IMG/VR virus record: IMGVR_UViG_3300038443_002533
Location: 160,001 to 224,000 of that record
DNA: 64,000 nucleotides
Source: a virus
Lineage: Duplodnaviria > Caudoviricetes
Strand: one strand, 5' to 3'
Position 1 is the first letter of the stretch; the number at the start of each line of letters is the position of its first letter. Positions 1,047-7,393 of the stretch are shown here, one piece after another. The notes below the pieces were generated by a model, which had not been told where the DNA came from, did not search any database, and worked only from the letters and a program-made list of their open reading frames with translations. Both the position numbers and the translations under genes were made by a program.

Positions 1047-1550
1047 ATGAGAATGCAACGACATTTGGCCACCGAGTCGGACCAACCGACAGGCGAAGCC
1101 GAAGATTCACCGGCCTACATCGAAGCGCTGGCCAAAGCGCAGCCGTACATCGAAGAATGGATCGGCTACGACCTGGACAAGACGCTGTTCCGCCATGACA
1201 AGTGGGAAGGTGTCCTGCATTTCGGCGAACCGATCGTACCGATGCTCGACCGGCTCAAGCAAGACCTCGCTAGTGGTAAGCGAGTAAAAATTTTCACGGC
1301 ACGCGTATCCTACGCCGACGAACGCATCAACACCGTCGTTCGTAAAGCGATCCAAGACTTGATGTTCGAGCATACCGGCCAGGTGCTGGAAGTGACCAAC
1401 ATCAAAGACATGGGGATGCGCAATCTGTACGATGACCGCGCCACCGGGGTGATCCCGAACGAAGGGGTGGTCATCGAAGCCCCTAAACACCTGCCGGGCA
1501 CCAGCGCTCAGTTCACCAAAGATCTGAAAGCCGCCCTCGGTCAAGACTAA
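1047..1550 (+). CDS. HAD-superfamily phosphatase (polynucleotide 3'-phosphatase-like)
   Basis: Motif I GYDLDKTL, motif II KIFTAR, K plus YDD motifs III/IV. Confidence 0.75.
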   Translation: MRMQRHLATESDQPTGEAEDSPAYIEALAKAQPYIEEWIGYDLDKTLFRHDKWEGVLHFGEPIVPMLDRLKQDLASGKRVKIFTARVSYADERINTVVRKAIQDLMFEHTGQVLEVTNIKDMGMRNLYDDRATGVIPNEGVVIEAPKHLPGTSAQFTKDLKAALGQD

Positions 1551-1555
1551 ACACC

Positions 1556-1822
1556 ATGGCACTTATTCCTACTGGCGTTAACATCATCTACGATCTGTTG
1601 AACGCCCCGAAAGACAAGAACCCGCAAGAGCAGATGGCGGAACTGGGCATCACGTGCCAACGTGTTATCCCCGAACCCATCATCCATCTCTGGCGTTTCA
1701 TCTCTGTTGACCGCGCGACGATTCCCGCTGAGTTGCCCCCGTACCTCAGTCTGGTGTATCTGAACGTCCAGCAATGGAACGAAGAACTCGAAACGCTGAA
1801 GCAACTCAGCCTGAAGAAATAA
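1556..1822 (+). CDS. hypothetical phage protein
   Basis: 88-aa ORF directly after the HAD gene. Confidence 0.75.
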   Translation: MALIPTGVNIIYDLLNAPKDKNPQEQMAELGITCQRVIPEPIIHLWRFISVDRATIPAELPPYLSLVYLNVQQWNEELETLKQLSLKK

Positions 1823-1874
1823 ACGGCGTACCACCCACTTGACCCCGACCGCAGTCAGGACCAAGTGGTGTAAG

Positions 1875-2225
1875 TTACGGGTTGTACGGCACGGCCAAAC
1901 CGTTGCTGACGAGTTGATCGTTCAGGCTGGTCGAAGTATTCGGCAGATACACATCCGCCAGATAGCGACCATACTTCTCCTTCTTGTCCGCGACGGTTTG
2001 GATCACCACCGGGGCGTTAGCCGGCAGTTGTTGCTGAAGCCAAGCGCGTGAATCTTTCCCGGCTTGGGTGCTGACTTCGGGGGCGTTGATACCGTTGAAG
2101 CGGCAGGTCATGTTGATGTGGATATCGCATCCCAAGTCAACATTGAATTCTGCGGTATCGCCATCGATGACGCGAATCACGGTGGCGTTACGGATGTACA
2201 CATCTTTCTTTTTGGCGGCTGTCAT
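1875..2225 (-). CDS. thermonuclease / staphylococcal nuclease (SNase-like) protein
   Basis: VIRVIDGDT, RFNGINAPE, DKKEKYGRYLADV and LVSNGLA motifs; GGAG RBS upstream on minus strand. Confidence 0.9.
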   Translation of the reverse strand: MTAAKKKDVYIRNATVIRVIDGDTAEFNVDLGCDIHINMTCRFNGINAPEVSTQAGKDSRAWLQQQLPANAPVVIQTVADKKEKYGRYLADVYLPNTSTSLNDQLVSNGLAVPYNP

Positions 2226-2273
2226 GGTGGGCTCCTATGCAAAGGGGGTTCATAGCATCCGCGCAGTACCAAT

Positions 2274-2428
2274 GGTCAAGATGGCGAAGTGGAAGACGCA
2301 GCTGACGCTCCGGGTGCAAGTGATCAGTATTTGAACGAGCAGTAGGGTATCTACCGGGTCCATGATCGGGGCGGGTACTCAGATAAACTGTTCTAGTAGA
2401 ACGGAGGTTCGATTCCTTCTCTTGACCA
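2274..2428 (+). ncRNA. tRNA-like RNA A: Leu-type D arm, 8-bp acceptor, enlarged anticodon loop and variable region
   Basis: GGTCAAGA/TCTTGACC-A acceptor; D stem GCG/CGC; GCTGA/TCAGT stem with 18-nt loop; T arm GGAGG-TTCGATT-CCTTC. Confidence 0.7.
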
Positions 2429-2439
2429 CTCAGTTTTAT

Positions 2440-2515
2440 GGGGAAGTCGCCCAGCAGGTTTATTGACCTGACCCACTGTAGGCACGCGCAGGTGCGAATC
2501 CTGCCTTCCCCGCCA
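2440..2515 (+). ncRNA. tRNA-like RNA B lacking an anticodon arm
   Basis: GGGGAAG/CTTCCCC-G-CCA; T arm GCAGG-TGCGAAT-CCTGC; single extended arm GCC...GGC. Confidence 0.7.
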
Positions 2516-2532
2516 CTCAACCGTAGTACGTA

Positions 2533-2689
2533 GGGCATGTAGCTCAGTGATAGAGCACCGTCCATTACCCTTGGGGTCGCTGGTTCGAGTCCAGCCTGGG
2601 GAGTATGCGAATACTCGCTGGTAGCTCAGATGGTTAGAGCACAAGGCTTGCTTAGACGGAGGTCGTGGGTTTGATCCCTGCCATGTCCA
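2533..2689 (+). ncRNA. tRNA-like RNA C: Ala-type outer tRNA with a nested circularly permuted tRNA
   Basis: GGGCATG/CATGTCC-A (G3.U70); CCGTC/GACGG; inner CCTTG/CAAGG, T arm, GCGA-capped acceptor stem and D arm. Confidence 0.8.
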
Positions 2690-2698
2690 TCAAGAATT

Positions 2699-2807
2699 CT
2701 TAATAAGTGGTAAAGTAGATCAACGCGGAGAACCGACGCGCTACAAGGGATACCTCGCTCTGGTTGGTTCACTGGAACGAAGGAGTTTGACCCTGCCACT
2801 TATTAAG
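2699..2807 (+). ncRNA. 109-nt RNA element closed by a 14-bp terminal stem
   Basis: CTTAATAAGTGGTA (2699-2712) pairs with TGCCACTTATTAAG (2794-2807); internal hairpins. Confidence 0.55.
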
Positions 2808-2826
2808 TGTTTTTAAGTTTCACGTA

Positions 2827-2964
2827 GGGCGTTTAGCTCAGTTGGTAGAGCACGGCTAAAGGTGGGCACCGACAAACCCACACCAGCTTAACAGGCTGGG
2901 GCCGAAAGGCAGTCACCATTCATTAAAGCCGAGGTCATGTGTTCGAATCACGTAACGTCCACCA
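2827..2964 (+). ncRNA. tRNA-like RNA E: Ala-type acceptor with a 69-nt structured insert in the anticodon loop
   Basis: GGGCGTT/AACGTCC-A-CCA (G3.U70); canonical D and T arms; CGGCT/AGCCG stem enclosing 2858-2926. Confidence 0.8.
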
Positions 2965-2973
2965 AGTTTCAAA

Positions 2974-3138
2974 GGGTGTGTAGCTCAGCTGGTAGAGCGT
3001 AGTCATGCAAGATTGTGGGGGTTCGAGTCCCCCCATTCTCTCGATTGGGAATGTGGCGGAATTGGTAGACGCGCCGTTCTAACGGACGGTTATCACATTA
3101 GGCTAAGGTCATGGGTTCAAATCCTGTCACATCCACCA
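2974..3138 (+). ncRNA. tRNA-like RNA F: Ala-type outer tRNA with a nested permuted Leu-like tRNA (96-nt insert)
   Basis: GGGTGTG/CACATCC-A-CCA (G3.U70); TAGTC/GGCTA; inner T arm, CATTCTC/GGGAATG capped stem and Leu-type D arm. Confidence 0.8.
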
Positions 3139-3156
3139 AGTTTCAAGCAGTACCGT

Positions 3157-3234
3157 AGGGGAGTCGCCAAGTTGGTCCAAGGCCCCGGATTTTGATTCCG
3201 GCATTCGAAGGTTCGAATCCTTCCTCCTCTGCCA
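3157..3234 (+). tRNA. tRNA-Gln(UUG)
   Basis: Canonical cloverleaf, CCGGA-TTTTGAT-TCCGG, encoded CCA. Confidence 0.93.
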
Positions 3235-3315
3235 GATTTTCGTAGGACTGTTTGATGAACAGAGTAAAATCATCATGGTAGAGATACCACTTACTAGGCA
3301 CTAGGAGAATGTACC

Positions 3316-3780
3316 ATGGCTGGATTTGTGAAATTGATGTCGAATGAAAACCTGCCGGACGCAAGTCCGTTCAAAGGCTATCAGCTGATCAGCTTACCGG
3401 ACGCTGGCAAGGTCGAATTCAAACGTAATGAGCGAGGTCTCGATACGTGTGTGATCTACACCCCGGAGCATGATCCAGAAGAATACCTGATGTACGGCAA
3501 TGCGTATATCCTGAGCGACTCGGGTAAAACCATTGCTTCCCATGGCACCAACGTGCCCTGCGCATTGGAACCGGGTCAAGAGATCAATGACGCTAAGGTG
3601 GCGGTTAGCGCACTGCTTACGCTGGAACCTGACGATCTGAAAGCGGCCCTTTGCCATCTGGTTGCAACTAAGCCGGAAACCATCCGTGTCATGGGTGGCG
3701 TCATAGCCAATTTGGCGCGGGCCGGAAACGAAGCTGCTATTTACTCAATTCGTCCCGCGGTCGAACACATCAGCACGTAA
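3316..3780 (+). CDS. hypothetical phage protein inside the RNA cluster
   Basis: 154-aa ORF with AGGAG RBS. Confidence 0.8.
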   Translation: MAGFVKLMSNENLPDASPFKGYQLISLPDAGKVEFKRNERGLDTCVIYTPEHDPEEYLMYGNAYILSDSGKTIASHGTNVPCALEPGQEINDAKVAVSALLTLEPDDLKAALCHLVATKPETIRVMGGVIANLARAGNEAAIYSIRPAVEHIST

Positions 3781-3791
3781 CACCGATCAAT

Positions 3792-3950
3792 GCCCAAGTC
3801 AGTTATTCCCTCCAACCGATTTCGTCATGAAAGATGGCGCATCTGGCTAAAAGTGAATTCCAAGGCCTGACTAGGGCGCCCCTTTGGCTTTATTAGTTGA
3901 AAGAGGTGTTGTGCCACCACACGCCGTCAATCGAGTAGACTAATAAAGCC
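3792..3950 (+). ncRNA. two adjacent stem-closed RNA elements
   Basis: 3792-3802/3867-3877 (11 bp, one mismatch) and 3886-3897/3939-3950 (12 bp perfect). Confidence 0.45.
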
Positions 3951-3956
3951 TTCCCT

Positions 3957-4032
3957 TCCCCGATAGCTCAGCCGGTAGAGCGACGGACTGTTAATCCGCA
4001 GGTCCCTGGTTCGAATCCAGGTCGGGGAGCCA
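3957..4032 (+). tRNA. tRNA-Asn(GUU)
   Basis: Canonical cloverleaf, ACGGA-CTGTTAA-TCCGC, encoded CCA. Confidence 0.96.
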
Positions 4033-4034
4033 CG

Positions 4035-4893
4035 AACATAAAAGCTGGAATCTAAGCTAGTAGAGTTATCCTTTAACTTGTGCTGGGGTTGTGTTGTTGA
4101 CACTTTACAACTAAGGCTTGGGTTCCGCCTTTTGTGTTTAACTGTCTTTGGGTTTGACTTGGATCGACCGCGAGTCGCAATTACCATACGAGCGATTACG
4201 ATTATCGAAGAACATATTGGCCTGACTCACAAGTCACCTGGTCAAACCCACCCTTTTTCAGAGGACGCACGTGAGGTCGTGCAGGCTTGAGTATCAAGTC
4301 TAGAATGGGCGTGGCTCCTTACACCTACGGGGATACTTAAGGGAGTCGAGGGAAGTGAGATCTCATCAATCTCCACAATGTGGGTGCAACCCACCCCAAT
4401 ACTCGCACACAGGAACGCCGTGGAAATCGGTGAACAACCAGGAGATGAGCCTGGTCCTCTGAGCTATTCTAAATAAAGGTACTGATGAGCCGTGGAAGTC
4501 GGCCCCTGTGCATACAGGCAAGGTTGCAAACCCTTCGAAACATCTCTTGCGCTTCAAGATACAACGAGATGTATACCAATGGACTTAACAGTGGTAGCCG
4601 TTGCTCTTGTCACCTCCGGGGTCTTGATGGGAGTCTAGTAGCGTTTCTGACACGAGCGCTGAAACTGTACGACTGGTTCAACCCTGTCGGCGTCTGTCAA
4701 ACGTCGTGGAGAGAGGATCAGTAAGTTGTACAACGCGTAAGCTGTGCCGCACGCTCCTAGTGAGCGGGTTCAGTGAGAAGCTAGGTCGTGCAAGACCAAG
4801 TTGTGCAGCCATTGTGAGATTGCGTCGGTTTGGCCAGACTGGCGCAGTTGTATCGGTGTGAGGCGGGGGAGGGGTGCAAAACTCTCCCCCGTT
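4035..4893 (+). ncRNA. putative large structured non-coding RNA (~860 nt) downstream of tRNA-Asn
   Basis: No credible ORF; 9-bp long-range stem 4150-4158/4241-4249; many hairpins; ends in a GC-rich hairpin followed by a T-rich tract. Confidence 0.6.
4478..4577 (+). ncRNA. hammerhead ribozyme-like element (type I topology, expanded stem II region)
   Basis: GGTA-CTGATGA...GAAA-CATCTC/GAGATG-TA-TACC: full catalytic core with a GUA cleavage triplet. Confidence 0.65.
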
Positions 4894-4931
4894 TCTTATT
4901 CTTTTTATGCCGTCAAAATCTAGGAGTAACT

Positions 4932-5669
4932 ATGTGGAACTTTTTCAAACGACTGTTTGGCGGTGGTAAACGACAAGAACCCCAGATCGATAAGCCGAGC
5001 GGATCGGCGGGCCGCTGCACACCGTACATGACACCGCTCAGTTCCATCAAACCGAAGTCACCGGAGCCCGTTAAAGAAGATCTGAAGCGCCCCAACGGCC
5101 AATGGGAAGAAACGGAAAACCAACGGCCGCCCGAAAGCGTATGGCAACAAAGCTTGCGGCGCGAAATCAATAAGGTTGAAAAACGTCAACGCTACAATGA
5201 AATTTTGAGCCAAGCTGGGATGGATGTTCGCGCCAGGCGATTCGAAGCCGTGCAACAGTCCGTCGATCGGGTTCGCCAAGAAGCACTCAACTCCGCCACC
5301 CCCCAGATGAGTCGACCGCAATTACCGCCCCATGCGTTGACGGATTCGGCGCGCCTGGATTTGGTCCGAAGAGCAACGCTGAGCACCATGTCCCAGCGCC
5401 CAGGATTACAAGCTGGGCTAGACGCGGTTCAGCGTGACATCGAAGCGCGCCGTCGACAGAACGAAGAAGACGAACGTCGTCGCCGTGAAGCCGATGATGA
5501 AGACCGTCGCCGTCGTAACAACGATGACACATTGAATTTGTTGGTAGGCTTATCCTCGATAATTTCTGACACCGTATCCTCATCGTCTGATTCCAGCCCC
5601 AGCTCGGATCCGTTCAGCGGCGGCGGTGGTTCCTTTGACGGCGGTGGTGCTTCTGGAGATTGGTCATGA
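4932..5669 (+). CDS. hypothetical protein with Ser/Gly-rich C-terminal tail
   Basis: AGGAG RBS before ATG 4932; ends FSGGGGSFDGGGASGDWS. Confidence 0.85.
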   Translation: MWNFFKRLFGGGKRQEPQIDKPSGSAGRCTPYMTPLSSIKPKSPEPVKEDLKRPNGQWEETENQRPPESVWQQSLRREINKVEKRQRYNEILSQAGMDVRARRFEAVQQSVDRVRQEALNSATPQMSRPQLPPHALTDSARLDLVRRATLSTMSQRPGLQAGLDAVQRDIEARRRQNEEDERRRREADDEDRRRRNNDDTLNLLVGLSSIISDTVSSSSDSSPSSDPFSGGGGSFDGGGASGDWS

Positions 5670-6739: not shown

Positions 6740-6823
6740 TAGTATGTAGTACGTAGTAGGTAGTGCATGATTTATCGGTGGAGATGGTGGGATCGAAAAC
6801 TCCATTCACCATCGAGAAAAATC

Positions 6824-7393
6824 ATGAAGAAAATTGCATCTTTGTTTCAACGTAACTATGACGGCGATCGTCAAGTGCGTAATGAAGTCGTTCCGGGTTC
6901 GGAATGGGTAATCCACGGCGAAGGGTATGCGACCCGTAAATGGGATGGCATGGCTATTAAGCTGGAGAACGCTCAGTTCTTTAAGCGTTATGATGCGAAG
7001 GCTGGCAGAACACCGCCCCCTGAATTCATTCCTGCCCAACCGGCGCCTGATCCACAAACTGGCCACTGGCCTGGTTGGGTGCCGTTGCAAGGGAAAGAAC
7101 TCAATCGCGTAGTAGCGGCGTATCAAGACAGCGGCATCACGGAAGACGGCACATTCGAATTCTGTGGACCGACGATTGGTACCCGCCATGGCGCCAACCC
7201 TGAACGGCTCACCAAGCACATCCTGGTGCCCCACGGGCAAGACATCCTGGCCGACTGTCCGCGTGACTTCGATGGGCTCAAAGCCTATCTGGCGAATGCG
7301 GATATCGAAGGGGTGGTGTGGTGGCATCCGGATGGTCGTAAGGTCAAGATCAAAGCAGCTGATTTTGGCCTCGTCAGGCACGCAGTAATCTGA
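6824..7393 (+). CDS. ATP-dependent RNA ligase (RLIG1/C12orf29, DUF5565-like)
   Basis: Ligase motifs RKWDG (I), EFCG (III), EGVVW (IV), KIK (V); HILVPHG motif. Confidence 0.7.
   Translation: MKKIASLFQRNYDGDRQVRNEVVPGSEWVIHGEGYATRKWDGMAIKLENAQFFKRYDAKAGRTPPPEFIPAQPAPDPQTGHWPGWVPLQGKELNRVVAAYQDSGITEDGTFEFCGPTIGTRHGANPERLTKHILVPHGQDILADCPRDFDGLKAYLANADIEGVVWWHPDGRKVKIKAADFGLVRHAVI

What the first reader, a model, noticed from the sequence alone, without database searches (positions are those of the whole stretch)
2974..3138. Element F: second nested tRNA with the same architecture but different sequence
The outer tRNA is GGGTGTG/CACATCC-A-CCA (G3.U70), with canonical D and T arms and a TAGTC/GGCTA stem. 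The 96-nt insert runs T arm (GGGGG-TTCGAGT-CCCCC), 7-bp acceptor capped by TCGATT (CATTCTC/GGGAATG), Leu-type D arm (TGGCGGAATTGGTAGACGC), then CCGTT/GACGG hairpin. This is again a permuted tRNA. The same design recurring with unrelated stem sequences argues against an assembly artefact or one-off rearrangement.
Basis: seen in the sequence. Interest (0 to 1): 0.85.

Follow-up and report, generated by a model that had tools for sequence, protein, structure and literature searches.

The report
Back-to-front tRNA inside a phage tRNA
A giant phage carries a 165-base RNA gene built as an alanine-type tRNA whose anticodon loop is replaced by a second tRNA body written in rotated order with a sealed acceptor end, so it cannot read codons and is more likely a tRNA look-alike adaptor or decoy than a working tRNA.

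Summary
Element F is one RNA gene in the only tRNA operon of a complete 272-kb uncultivated jumbo phage.

- **Outer part:** a full class-I tRNA chassis with alanine identity marks (G3.U70, A73, encoded CCA).
- **Insert:** the TAGTC/GGCTA anticodon stem encloses 96 nt that form a circularly permuted Leu-type tRNA body. Its order is T arm, 7-bp acceptor sealed by a 6-nt cap, D arm, then a hairpin with a 6-nt loop.
- **Nested versus tandem:** nested pairing beats the tandem-tRNA reading that Rfam gives, with 7/7 and 7/7 acceptor pairs against 6/7 and 5/7, and -54.6 against -38.0 kcal/mol.
- **Sister elements:** four elements in this phage and two related phages share the design, with 17 of 38 pairs changed on both sides.
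- **No ortholog:** F itself has none.
- **Not found:** Ro60, RtcB, a group I intron or a BHB motif.

Best reading: an unspliced, non-decoding, probably alanine-charged tRNA chassis carrying a YrlA-type tRNA mimic. Its cap may be opened by RNase P.

This scan had already noted permuted tRNA mimics and tRNA-shaped introns on other DNA. In what I searched, mounting a permuted mimic inside a tRNA occurs only in this clade.

The parts
2974..2980 (+). Outer acceptor stem, 5' strand GGGTGTG
   Evidence: Pairs 7/7 with 3128-3134, including G3.U70.
2983..2998 (+). Outer D arm GCTC-AGCTGGTA-GAGC, preceded by U8 A9
   Evidence: Read in sequence. Aligned to the Rfam tRNA model.
3000..3004 (+). Outer anticodon stem, 5' strand TAGTC
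   Evidence: Pairs 5/5 with 3101-3105. The same stem position pairs in 40 of 40 cells across 8 chassis.
3005..3011 (+). 7-nt anticodon-loop-like stretch AUGCAAG (U33, GCA, A37) on the 5' side only
   Evidence: ARAGORN -i reads it as the loop of tRNA-Cys(gca), with the insert starting after it.
3012..3016 (+). Closing helix of the insert, 5' strand ATTGT (weak)
   Evidence: TGT/ACA plus an A-T with 3095-3099. Included in the evaluated nested model.
3017..3033 (+). Inner T arm GGGGG-TTCGAGT-CCCCC
   Evidence: Found by the T-loop scan of the whole genome. Present in the free fold.
3034..3040 (+). Inner acceptor stem, 3' strand CATTCTC
   Evidence: Pairs 7/7 with 3047-3053.
3041..3046 (+). 6-nt cap TCGATT sealing the inner acceptor. 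It has U at the discriminator place, no CCA, and U(-1)/G(+1) at the expected RNase P site.
   Evidence: Read in sequence. The RNase P analogy comes from M. smegmatis YrlA (PMC4201824).
3047..3053 (+). Inner acceptor stem, 5' strand GGGAATG
3056..3072 (+). Inner Leu-type D arm (GCG-GAATTGGTAGA-CGC), preceded by U8 G9
   Evidence: 93% identical over 29 nt to E. coli tRNA-Leu genes. Drawn as a D arm by ARAGORN on the rotated insert.
3074..3089 (+). Hairpin CCGTT-CTAACG-GACGG in the anticodon-arm position of the inner body, with a 6-nt loop
   Evidence: ARAGORN reports a two-base anticodon.
3095..3099 (+). Closing helix of the insert, 3' strand ACATT. It sits in the variable-arm position of the inner body.
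3101..3105 (+). Outer anticodon stem, 3' strand GGCTA
3106..3110 (+). Outer variable loop AGGTC, identical in the eight chassis I parsed (my listing of the eight from the sequences)
   Evidence: Chassis strings printed for C, E and F; AGGTC columns fully conserved.
3111..3127 (+). Outer T arm ATGGG-TTCAAAT-CCTGT
3128..3138 (+). Outer acceptor 3' strand CACATCC, then A73 and encoded CCA

Best explanation
Element F is one RNA gene, not two tRNAs and not a decoding tRNA.

**What it is (shown).** It folds into two tRNA-shaped bodies joined on their anticodon sides. The outer body is a complete tRNA chassis with the alanine identity set and an encoded CCA. The inner body is a circularly permuted Leu-type tRNA look-alike with a sealed acceptor end, the topology known from YrlA Y RNAs. 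The operon context is also shown.

**How I think it works (inferred).**
- It is transcribed within the phage's single tRNA operon.
- RNase P and 3' trimming release it at its outer ends, as they release its neighbours.
- It is not spliced.
- The chassis supplies tRNA-style processing, stability and probably charging by AlaRS.
- The insert is the working cargo: a second tRNA elbow that binds, tethers or decoys a tRNA-recognising factor without ever entering decoding.
- Whether the 7-bp cap is also opened by RNase P is left open here and is listed as a separate variant.
For: **Structure**
- Every helix is present.
- The free fold forms both nested acceptor stems. Forcing tandem pairing costs 16.6 kcal/mol.
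- The rotated insert is drawn as a class-II cloverleaf.

**Family**
- Four sister elements give the same nested consensus, with 17 of 38 pairs changed on both sides.
- In register, 98% of cells pair, against 32-47% when slid. None of 1000 column shuffles reaches the observed count.

**Chassis and cargo logic**
- The E and F chassis are 77% identical, while their inserts are at shuffle level (49.5% against a shuffle mean of 44%).
- Between phages, the inner module of element C is 90% identical. Its chassis is 67-77% identical and the adjacent gene 66%.

**Alanine marks**
- G1-C72, G2-C71, G3.U70 and A73 stay fixed in C, E and F, while positions 4-7 change with compensation.
- G3.U70 occurs in 5 of 8 chassis.
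- That G3.U70 is enough for AlaRS is established knowledge.

**Against decoding or splicing**
- The Ala-type acceptor is combined with a Cys-like loop.
- Sister elements lack canonical loops (read in sequence).

**Operon context**
- F starts 9 nt after E's CCA and ends 18 nt before tRNA-Gln.
- No terminator-like site occurs before 4860.

**Module is a known kind**
- The Rfam YrlA model hits the sister element at 31 bits.
- That sister's inner module is 79% identical to a YrlA-like RNA beside an 'RNA binding protein' gene in Vibrio phage BONAISHI.
Against: - No transcript, end-mapping, charging or binding data exist.
- F has no ortholog in the two related phages, so selection on F itself is not shown.
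- F's closing helix has only 3-4 pairs, and the idealised double cloverleaf lies 10 kcal/mol above the free fold.
- The 5' linker is a near-perfect anticodon loop (U33, A37), which a pure cargo model does not need.
- No partner protein is known. The three phages lack Ro60-like genes.
- F's inner D and T stems do not carry the YrlA consensus.
Confidence: 0.5

Rival explanations
1. Two-piece, two-headed tRNA mimic. RNase P cuts the inner cap just 5' of G3047. The upstream piece is trimmed to its discriminator and receives CCA from the phage's own CCA-adding enzyme. The result is two tRNA-sized RNAs (about 71 and 92 nt) that stay paired as two complete L-shaped bodies, each with a free CCA end. 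This is a variant of the best explanation, not its opposite.
For: - F's inner acceptor is exactly 7 bp, with U(-1)/G(+1) at the junction.
- M. smegmatis YrlA, the one YrlA with a 7-bp stem, is cut by RNase P and receives CCA in vivo (PMC4201824; bioRxiv 10.1101/312249).
- The phage encodes a CCA-adding enzyme (window 26067-27329, E 4.6e-105), although the canonical tRNA genes I read in these phages, and E and F themselves, encode their own CCA.
- Other IMG/VR phages have permuted Leu-type modules whose cap begins with ACCA (L214, L232).
Against: - F's cap has no CCA, and its discriminator is U rather than the A73 that LeuRS needs (established knowledge).
- The sister elements have 11-12-bp continuous acceptor hairpins that should resist RNase P.
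- Phage CCA enzymes are usually explained as tRNA repair enzymes (PMC7824862).
Confidence: 0.2
2. Intron-containing tRNA. The 89-nt insert is cut out by proteins and the halves are rejoined by the phage RNA ligase, giving a 76-nt tRNA with anticodon GCA. A circular or linear permuted tRNA-like by-product may also result.
For: - ARAGORN -i calls tRNA-Cys(gca) with the insert right after a canonical 7-nt loop.
- Two sister elements also carry canonical-looking 5' linkers (AUUCUAA, GUUUGAG).
- An RLIG1-like ligase (6767-7393) and an SNase homologue (1875-2225, minus strand) lie nearby.
- Phage tRNA introns that look like tRNAs are on record (Devoto 2019, PMC6784885), and this scan noted them in other genomes.
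Against: - The acceptor says Ala (G3.U70, A73) while the anticodon says Cys, so a spliced product would mistranslate.
- Elements C and E have no usable loop.
- The permuted order puts the RNase P and RNase Z sites in the cap, not at the exon borders. The route proposed for non-permuted tRNA-shaped introns therefore cannot excise this insert.
- No group I intron, BHB motif or RtcB was found.
- Ligase homologues in 4 other phage contigs have no tRNA within 8 kb.
- The insert is better conserved than the chassis.
Confidence: 0.12
3. Decaying pair of tandem tRNA genes (an Ala-like gene followed by a Leu-like gene) whose acceptor stems happen to cross-pair. No function of its own.
For: - Rfam scores the halves as two tRNAs above threshold (39.6 and 31.7 bits against 29).
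- The stretch from inner T arm to D arm is 85% identical to a true tRNA-Lys/tRNA-Leu junction in Caulobacter phages.
- Tandem acceptor pairing still gives 6/7 and 5/7.
- F has no ortholog.
Against: - Nested pairing gives 12 Watson-Crick pairs plus 2 G.U. Tandem pairing gives 8 plus 3 G.U and 3 mismatches.
- Both tandem halves would have 6-nt anticodon loops. The first would have a 1-nt variable region, and the second no variable-arm stem.
- The 5' 31 nt and 3' 38 nt of F together match the chassis of element E at 77%.
- All the helices listed under parts are intact, which is not what decay predicts.
Confidence: 0.1
4. Assembly artefact: a chimeric join between similar tRNA genes.
For: - tRNA arrays are repeat-rich.
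- F is seen in a single metagenome assembly.
Against: - A misjoin would not create two perfectly complementary nested acceptor stems plus a matching anticodon stem.
- The same design occurs in two other independently assembled phage genomes.
- The genome is a closed contig with terminal repeats.
Confidence: 0.02

Closest known systems
YrlA, the tRNA-like Y RNA of bacteria and phages (Rfam RF02553; Chen et al. 2014, PMC4201824; Wang et al. 2018, bioRxiv 10.1101/312249)
   Same: - The insert has the YrlA topology: T arm, then an acceptor-like stem closed by a loop, then a D arm.
- The nucleotides for the elbow contacts are all present (T54/A58 of the T loop, GG of the D loop, U8/A14).
- A 7-bp version of YrlA is known to be opened by RNase P and given CCA.
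   Different: - The module sits in the anticodon loop of a full tRNA instead of on a Ro60-binding stem.
- None of the three phages has a Ro60/TROVE gene.
- F's D arm is Leu-type and lacks the conserved YrlA D and T stem sequences.
- F's insert has an extra hairpin.
- The Rfam model does not hit F's insert at all.
Stable RNA species 1 (rnaC) of phage T4, in the T4 tRNA cluster
   Same: - A stable, non-decoding RNA encoded among phage tRNA genes.
- It keeps an acceptor-like stem and a canonical T arm around an enlarged interior.
- Its function is still unknown.
   Different: - rnaC has no second tRNA body, no alanine identity marks and no complete chassis.
- It shares no sequence similarity with F.
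'Enigmatic' tRNA introns of Lak megaphages (Devoto et al. 2019, PMC6784885), one of which 'itself may encode a tRNA'
   Same: A tRNA-shaped insert inside the anticodon loop of a phage tRNA gene, in a very large phage.
   Different: - By this scan's notes on other phages, such inserts run in normal order from a tRNA 5' end to a 3' tail, so RNase P and RNase Z could excise them. Devoto et al. say only that the insert may encode a tRNA.
- F's insert is rotated, with the would-be cut sites in its cap.
- Their host tRNAs have matching identity and anticodon. F's does not.
Circularly permuted tRNA genes of the red alga Cyanidioschyzon merolae (Soma et al. 2007; cited from my own knowledge)
   Same: The 3' half precedes the 5' half, joined by a short intervening sequence at the acceptor ends.
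   Different: - Those genes are matured through a circular intermediate made by the BHB splicing endonuclease, and they yield decoding tRNAs.
- F has no BHB motif, sits in a phage of bacteria, and has a 6-nt anticodon loop.
tmRNA
   Same: An alanine-identity tRNA-like acceptor and T domain (G3.U70) joined to a large non-anticodon insert, so it can be charged without decoding in the ordinary way.
   Different: - F keeps a full D arm and anticodon stem.
- F has no pseudoknots and no tag reading frame.
- ARAGORN's tmRNA search finds nothing.
Engineered 'tRNA scaffold' for expressing recombinant RNAs (Ponchon and Dardel 2007; cited from my own knowledge)
   Same: A cargo RNA is inserted in place of the anticodon loop, so that the chassis gives correct processing and protection from nucleases.
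   Different: - That scaffold is man-made. F would be a natural counterpart.
- The cargo here is itself a tRNA mimic.

Membership tests
Canonical decoding tRNA | A 7-nt anticodon hairpin loop closing a 5-bp stem, within about 76-90 nt | tested here: not met
   - Default ARAGORN finds only tRNA-Gln and tRNA-Asn.
- F's stem is closed by 96 nt.
- The inner hairpin loop has 6 nt.
Canonical decoding tRNA | Acceptor, D and T arms with the tertiary-contact nucleotides | tested here: met
   - Both bodies have U8, A14, G18G19 and T54...A58.
- The 15:48 pair can form in both (G15/C48 outer, A15/U48 inner), as read in sequence.
Alanine-accepting tRNA-like RNA | G3.U70 in the acceptor stem with A73 and a CCA end | tested here: met
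   - Present in F.
- Kept in C, E and F while positions 4-7 covary.
- Actual charging cannot be tested with these tools.
YrlA (RF02553) | Permuted tRNA-like domain: T arm, closed acceptor-like stem, D arm | tested here: met
YrlA (RF02553) | Score at or above the Rfam gathering threshold (69 bits), with the conserved D and T stem sequences | tested here: not met
   - No YrlA match lies in register with F's insert.
- The only overlapping hit (2912-3025, 21.8 bits) joins E's T arm to F's outer D arm.
- The sister element reaches 31.3 bits.
YrlA (RF02553) | Ro60-binding terminal stem and a neighbouring Ro60/Rsr (TROVE) gene | tested here: not met
   - F's ends form a tRNA acceptor stem.
- No TROVE or phrog_850 match in this phage or in the two relatives.
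Group I intron in a tRNA anticodon loop | A self-splicing core of roughly 200 nt or more that matches Rfam Intron_gpI | tested here: not met
   - The insert is 89-96 nt.
- No intron family matches F at E up to 10; the only intron-family row in that search, group-II-D1D4-4 at 12.8 bits, lies at 2577-2728, outside F.
- None matches at the gathering threshold either.
Archaeal/eukaryal protein-spliced tRNA intron | A bulge-helix-bulge motif at the exon-intron borders, and an RtcB-type ligase | tested here: not met
   - The borders give a 7-nt/1-nt asymmetric loop, not two 3-nt bulges around 4 bp (read in sequence).
- No RtcB is present.
Non-permuted tRNA-shaped phage intron (Lak-type) | The insert runs from a tRNA-like 5' end to a 3' tail, so its ends coincide with the RNase P and RNase Z sites | tested here: not met
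   - The arm order in F is D, T, D, T.
- The acceptor ends of the insert lie in its middle, at 3034-3053.
Permuted tRNA gene (C. merolae type) | The 3' half lies before the 5' half, and a functional anticodon arm results after maturation | tested here: inconclusive
   - The order is met.
- The anticodon loop has 6 nt, and no circularisation signal was found.
tmRNA | Tag reading frame and pseudoknots, detected by ARAGORN | tested here: not met
   No tmRNA is called in the window or the genome.

The most novel reading that the evidence does not exclude
F and its sisters are a new class of phage RNA: alanine-charged, non-decoding 'double-headed' tRNA mimics. An ordinary tRNA chassis displays a second tRNA body, which may itself be opened and CCA-tailed. 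The molecule would work as a bivalent adaptor or decoy for tRNA-recognising host factors, for example tRNA-targeting defence nucleases or enzymes that modify CCA ends, independently of Ro60.
Probability: 0.25. Interest if true: 0.85.

Novelty: new variant of a known kind. Interest (0 to 1): 0.62.

Why it matters
**For annotation.** Standard pipelines would either miss F or call it two tRNAs, as Rfam does. This phage would then appear to carry more tRNAs than the two it really has.

**For biology.** If the RNA is expressed as predicted, three things follow:
- The YrlA-type tRNA mimic can work without Ro60 and can be mounted on a real tRNA.
- Phages use a tRNA chassis as a natural scaffold for swapping RNA cargo. 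E and F share a chassis but not an insert.
- Alanine identity is kept on RNAs that cannot decode, which points to charging, or at least AlaRS/EF-Tu binding, as part of the mechanism.

**For testing.** The question of what tRNA mimics in phage tRNA clusters do has been open since the T4 species 1 and 2 RNAs. F gives a compact 165-nt object that can be tested in E. coli.

Tried and rejected

- Structure: AlphaFold on the conserved 154-aa protein inside the array (3316-3780) gave pLDDT 51. I did not use it, and Pfam has no match.

**Searches for more relatives**
- Protein-guided scans with that 154-aa protein found only two phage contigs in IMG/VR and none in the metagenome collection.
- A 26-nt conserved DNA word from element A found only the L002 contig.
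- No isolate phage is close; the best protein identity is 34%.

**Searches for the same architecture elsewhere**
- None of those modules lies inside a tRNA chassis outside this clade.
- The detector's extra 'nested' calls (L054, L184/L235, L205/L218) are ordinary tandem tRNAs with similar acceptor stems.

**Ideas rejected**
- Ligase link: homologues of the RLIG1-like ligase in 4 other contigs have no tRNA genes within 8 kb.
- Partner genes: no TROVE, phrog_850 or RtcB.
- Known RNA families: no ribozyme matches anywhere searched and no intron family matches F; a weak group II row (12.8 bits) lies upstream at 2577-2728, outside F.
- A second array in G001: two T-loop-like words near 281.8 kb lie in coding sequence.
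- BLAST matches of F's insert to Caulobacter and Synechococcus phages are true tandem tRNA junctions, not nested elements.

Full report
**1. What is there**

Numbering F from 1 to 165 (window 2974-3138), the parts are as follows.

| Part | Positions | Sequence or note |
|---|---|---|
| Outer acceptor | 1-7 with 155-161 | GGGTGTG/CACATCC, 7/7 including G3.U70 |
| Outer D arm | 10-25 | canonical |
| Outer anticodon stem | 27-31 with 128-132 | TAGTC/GGCTA, 5/5 |
| Anticodon-like stretch | 32-38 | AUGCAAG, 7 nt |
| Closing helix | 39-43 with 122-126 | ATTGT/ACATT, weak |
| Inner T arm | 44-60 | GGGGG-TTCGAGT-CCCCC |
| Inner acceptor | 61-67 with 74-80 | CATTCTC/GGGAATG, 7/7, capped by TCGATT |
| Inner D arm | 83-99 | Leu-type |
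| Hairpin | 101-116 | 6-nt loop |
| Variable loop | 133-137 | AGGTC |
| Outer T arm | 138-154 | ATGGG-TTCAAAT-CCTGT |
| 3' end | 162-165 | A73 and CCA |

How the standard tools read it:
- Default ARAGORN sees only tRNA-Gln (3157-3234) and tRNA-Asn (3957-4032) in the window.
- With introns allowed, ARAGORN calls 2974-3138 a tRNA-Cys(gca) with an 89-nt insert.
- Rfam reads the same stretch as two tandem tRNAs, at 2974-3041 (39.6 bits) and 3047-3135 (31.7 bits). Both have mismatched acceptors and deleted anticodon loops.

**2. Context**

- The window is bases 160001-224000 of a complete 272,470-bp virus record with direct terminal repeats.
- The record has no close cultured relative; the best protein identity to an isolate is 34%.
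- Nearly all of the genome's T-loop-like hairpins, and every one that belongs to a tRNA-like element, lie within 1.6 kb, at window 2403-4005 (a few isolated matches elsewhere are not tRNA-like).
- That stretch holds two canonical tRNAs. Upstream of them is a run of non-canonical tRNA-like elements at 2274-3138.
- F starts 9 nt after the CCA of the preceding element E and ends 18 nt before tRNA-Gln.
- No terminator-like site occurs before 4860 and no sigma-70-like promoter lies inside the run. F is therefore most simply part of one polycistronic tRNA transcript.

**3. Nested or tandem?**

- Acceptor pairing: nested gives 7/7 and 7/7, tandem gives 6/7 and 5/7. In detail that is 12 Watson-Crick pairs plus 2 G.U, against 8 plus 3 G.U and 3 mismatches.
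- Energy: the unconstrained fold (-54.6 kcal/mol) already contains both nested acceptor stems. Forcing the tandem stems gives -38.0 kcal/mol.
- Tandem defects: the first 'tRNA' would have a 6-nt loop and a 1-nt variable region. The second would have a 6-nt loop and no variable-arm stem.
- Nested fit: the 5' 31 nt and 3' 38 nt of F together form a chassis 77% identical to that of element E, and the two inserts are no more alike than shuffled sequence.
- Rotation test: when the insert is rotated back to normal order, ARAGORN draws a class-II cloverleaf with a long variable arm and a two-base 'anticodon'.
- Caveat: the idealised double cloverleaf scores -44.3 kcal/mol, which is 10 kcal/mol above the free fold. 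The free fold prefers a local TAGTC/GATTG hairpin to the long-range anticodon stem. I prefer the long-range stem by homology, as explained next.

**4. The design recurs and covaries**

- A protein inside the array (3316-3780) led to two related phage genomes, at about 60% amino-acid identity.
- Both carry such elements.
- For the four sister elements with a class-I insert (window 2533-2690; L001 209-368 and 387-558; L002 2325-2480), RNAalifold predicts on its own the same nested layout: outer acceptor, D arm and anticodon stem, then inner T arm, capped acceptor and D arm, then outer T arm.
- In that consensus, 17 of 38 pairs are changed on both sides.
- In register, 98% of cells pair, against 32-47% when the partners are slid. 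None of 1000 column shuffles reaches the observed count.
- Across eight chassis, the outer anticodon stem pairs in 40 of 40 cells, with up to four pair types per position.
- F itself has no ortholog. The evidence for selection therefore applies to the design, not to F.

**5. What the insert is**

- Its topology is that of YrlA, which its discoverers describe as a circularly permuted tRNA with a closed acceptor stem (PMC4201824; bioRxiv 10.1101/312249).
- The Rfam YrlA model hits the sister element at 31 bits, below the threshold of 69.
- That sister's module is 79% identical to an unannotated YrlA-like RNA next to an 'RNA binding protein' gene in Vibrio phage BONAISHI. A similar pairing exists in Enterococcus phage EA1.
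- F's insert differs from these. Its D arm is Leu-type, it has an extra hairpin, and the YrlA model does not find it.
- A scan of IMG/VR for 'T loop, short gap, Leu-type D arm' returned 120 junctions. Five cross-pair 7/7. At least L174, L214, L232 and L233 look like permuted Leu-type modules in other large phages, and two of them have ACCA at the start of the cap.
- None of those modules sits in a tRNA chassis.
- None of the three phages of this clade encodes a Ro60-like protein or RtcB.

**6. What the chassis says**

- G1-C72, G2-C71, G3.U70 and A73 are invariant in elements C, E and F, while positions 4-7 change with compensation.
- A wobble pair held fixed among covarying Watson-Crick neighbours indicates selection. 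G3.U70 is the established main determinant for AlaRS, which does not read the anticodon.
- I therefore infer that the chassis is charged with alanine.
- This also argues against splicing. A spliced F would combine alanine identity with a Cys anticodon.
- The sister elements show Arg-like or Gln-like linkers, or unusable ones, on similar chassis.

**7. Mechanism**

Best-supported reading (0.5). F is a stable, unspliced, non-decoding RNA.
- The chassis gives RNase P and 3'-end processing, protection and probably alanylation.
- The insert is the cargo, a second tRNA elbow for a tRNA-recognising factor.
- Supporting this, between phages the inner module of element C is 90% identical. Its chassis is 67-77% identical and the flanking gene 66%.

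Variant (0.2). The 7-bp cap is opened by RNase P and CCA is added, as shown for M. smegmatis YrlA. The phage's own CCA-adding enzyme would supply the CCA.

Rivals:
- A protein-spliced intron (0.12).
- A decaying tandem tRNA pair (0.10).
- An assembly artefact (0.02).

What is shown and what is inferred:
- Shown: the sequence, the fold, the covariation of the design, the gene context and the absences listed above.
- Inferred: transcription, processing, charging and function.

**8. Comparison and novelty**

- YrlA-type mimics, the T4 species 1 RNA and tRNA-shaped inserts in Lak phage tRNAs are on record.
- This scan had already noted permuted mimics and tRNA-shaped introns in other genomes, and the array itself in this genome.
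- I found no paper describing a permuted tRNA mimic mounted in the anticodon loop of an alanine-type tRNA. Those searches cover open-access text only.
- I rate F a new variant of a known kind.

**9. Limits**

- Only three phage genomes carry the design, and F is a singleton.

Noticed in passing
window 2274-2429: Element A is a class-II tRNA-like chassis with a long variable arm and a large insert (ARAGORN -i gives 73 nt) in the anticodon region. It is 87.5% identical to L002 2486-2642, although the neighbouring gene is only 66% identical.
   Followed up: partly
window 2440-2515: A 76-nt tRNA-like RNA with an intact acceptor stem, T arm and CCA but no anticodon arm. It scores 25 bits against the Rfam tRNA model, below threshold.
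   Followed up: no
window 2697-2812: A roughly 110-nt structured element inside the array, closed by an 11-bp stem (TTAATAAGTGG/CCACTTATTAA). It has no tRNA features and no Rfam match.
   Followed up: no
window 2827-2964 and 2974-3138: Neighbouring elements E and F share a chassis (77% identical, same unusual A49-U65 and U50.G64 T-stem pairs) but have unrelated inserts. This looks like cargo swapping on a duplicated chassis.
   Followed up: yes
window 2961-2973 and 3135-3147; L001 365-378; L002 2466-2476: Several elements in all three phages are followed by the same trailer, CCA-AGTTTCAA. Many are preceded by CGTAG or GTAGTA. These may be processing or transcription signals.
   Followed up: no
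L001 61-190, 209-368, 387-558, 1489-1622: All four tRNA-like elements of this relative pair best if one G is bulged from the 3' strand of the acceptor stem at the same place (AGC-G-CCCT, ATC-G-CTCC twice, AAC-G-CCCG). This is a shared oddity that might be a recognition mark.
   Followed up: partly
L214 about 1544-2262 (reverse strand) and L232 9114-9172: Other IMG/VR phage contigs carry permuted Leu-type tRNA-like modules. L214 has three in a row. In L214 and L232 the cap begins with ACCA, which suggests the sealed acceptor is opened to a CCA end.
   Followed up: partly
L181 2270-2540: Two tandem tRNA-Leu-type chassis, each with its anticodon region replaced by a long insert. This is another example of tRNA-chassis RNAs in an unrelated phage contig.
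   Followed up: no
L004 (Vibrio phage BONAISHI, MH595538 about 54.5 kb) and L131 (Enterococcus phage EA1, PQ571287 about 109.3 kb): Unannotated YrlA-like permuted tRNA modules lie next to genes annotated 'RNA binding protein' (phrog_850 in EA1). These are probably phage Ro60/Y-RNA pairs.
   Followed up: partly
window 4000-5000: Another first-stage note proposed a hammerhead ribozyme at 4478-4577 and a large ncRNA at 4035-4893. Rfam gives no match at E up to 1 in this stretch. A strong terminator-like hairpin lies at 4860-4895.
   Followed up: partly
window 1875-2225 (minus strand), 6767-7393, 26067-27329: Pfam and PHROGs confirm an SNase homologue, an RLIG1-like RNA ligase and a CCA-adding enzyme. 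The ORF at 1047-1550, called a HAD phosphatase in another note, has no Pfam match.
   Followed up: partly
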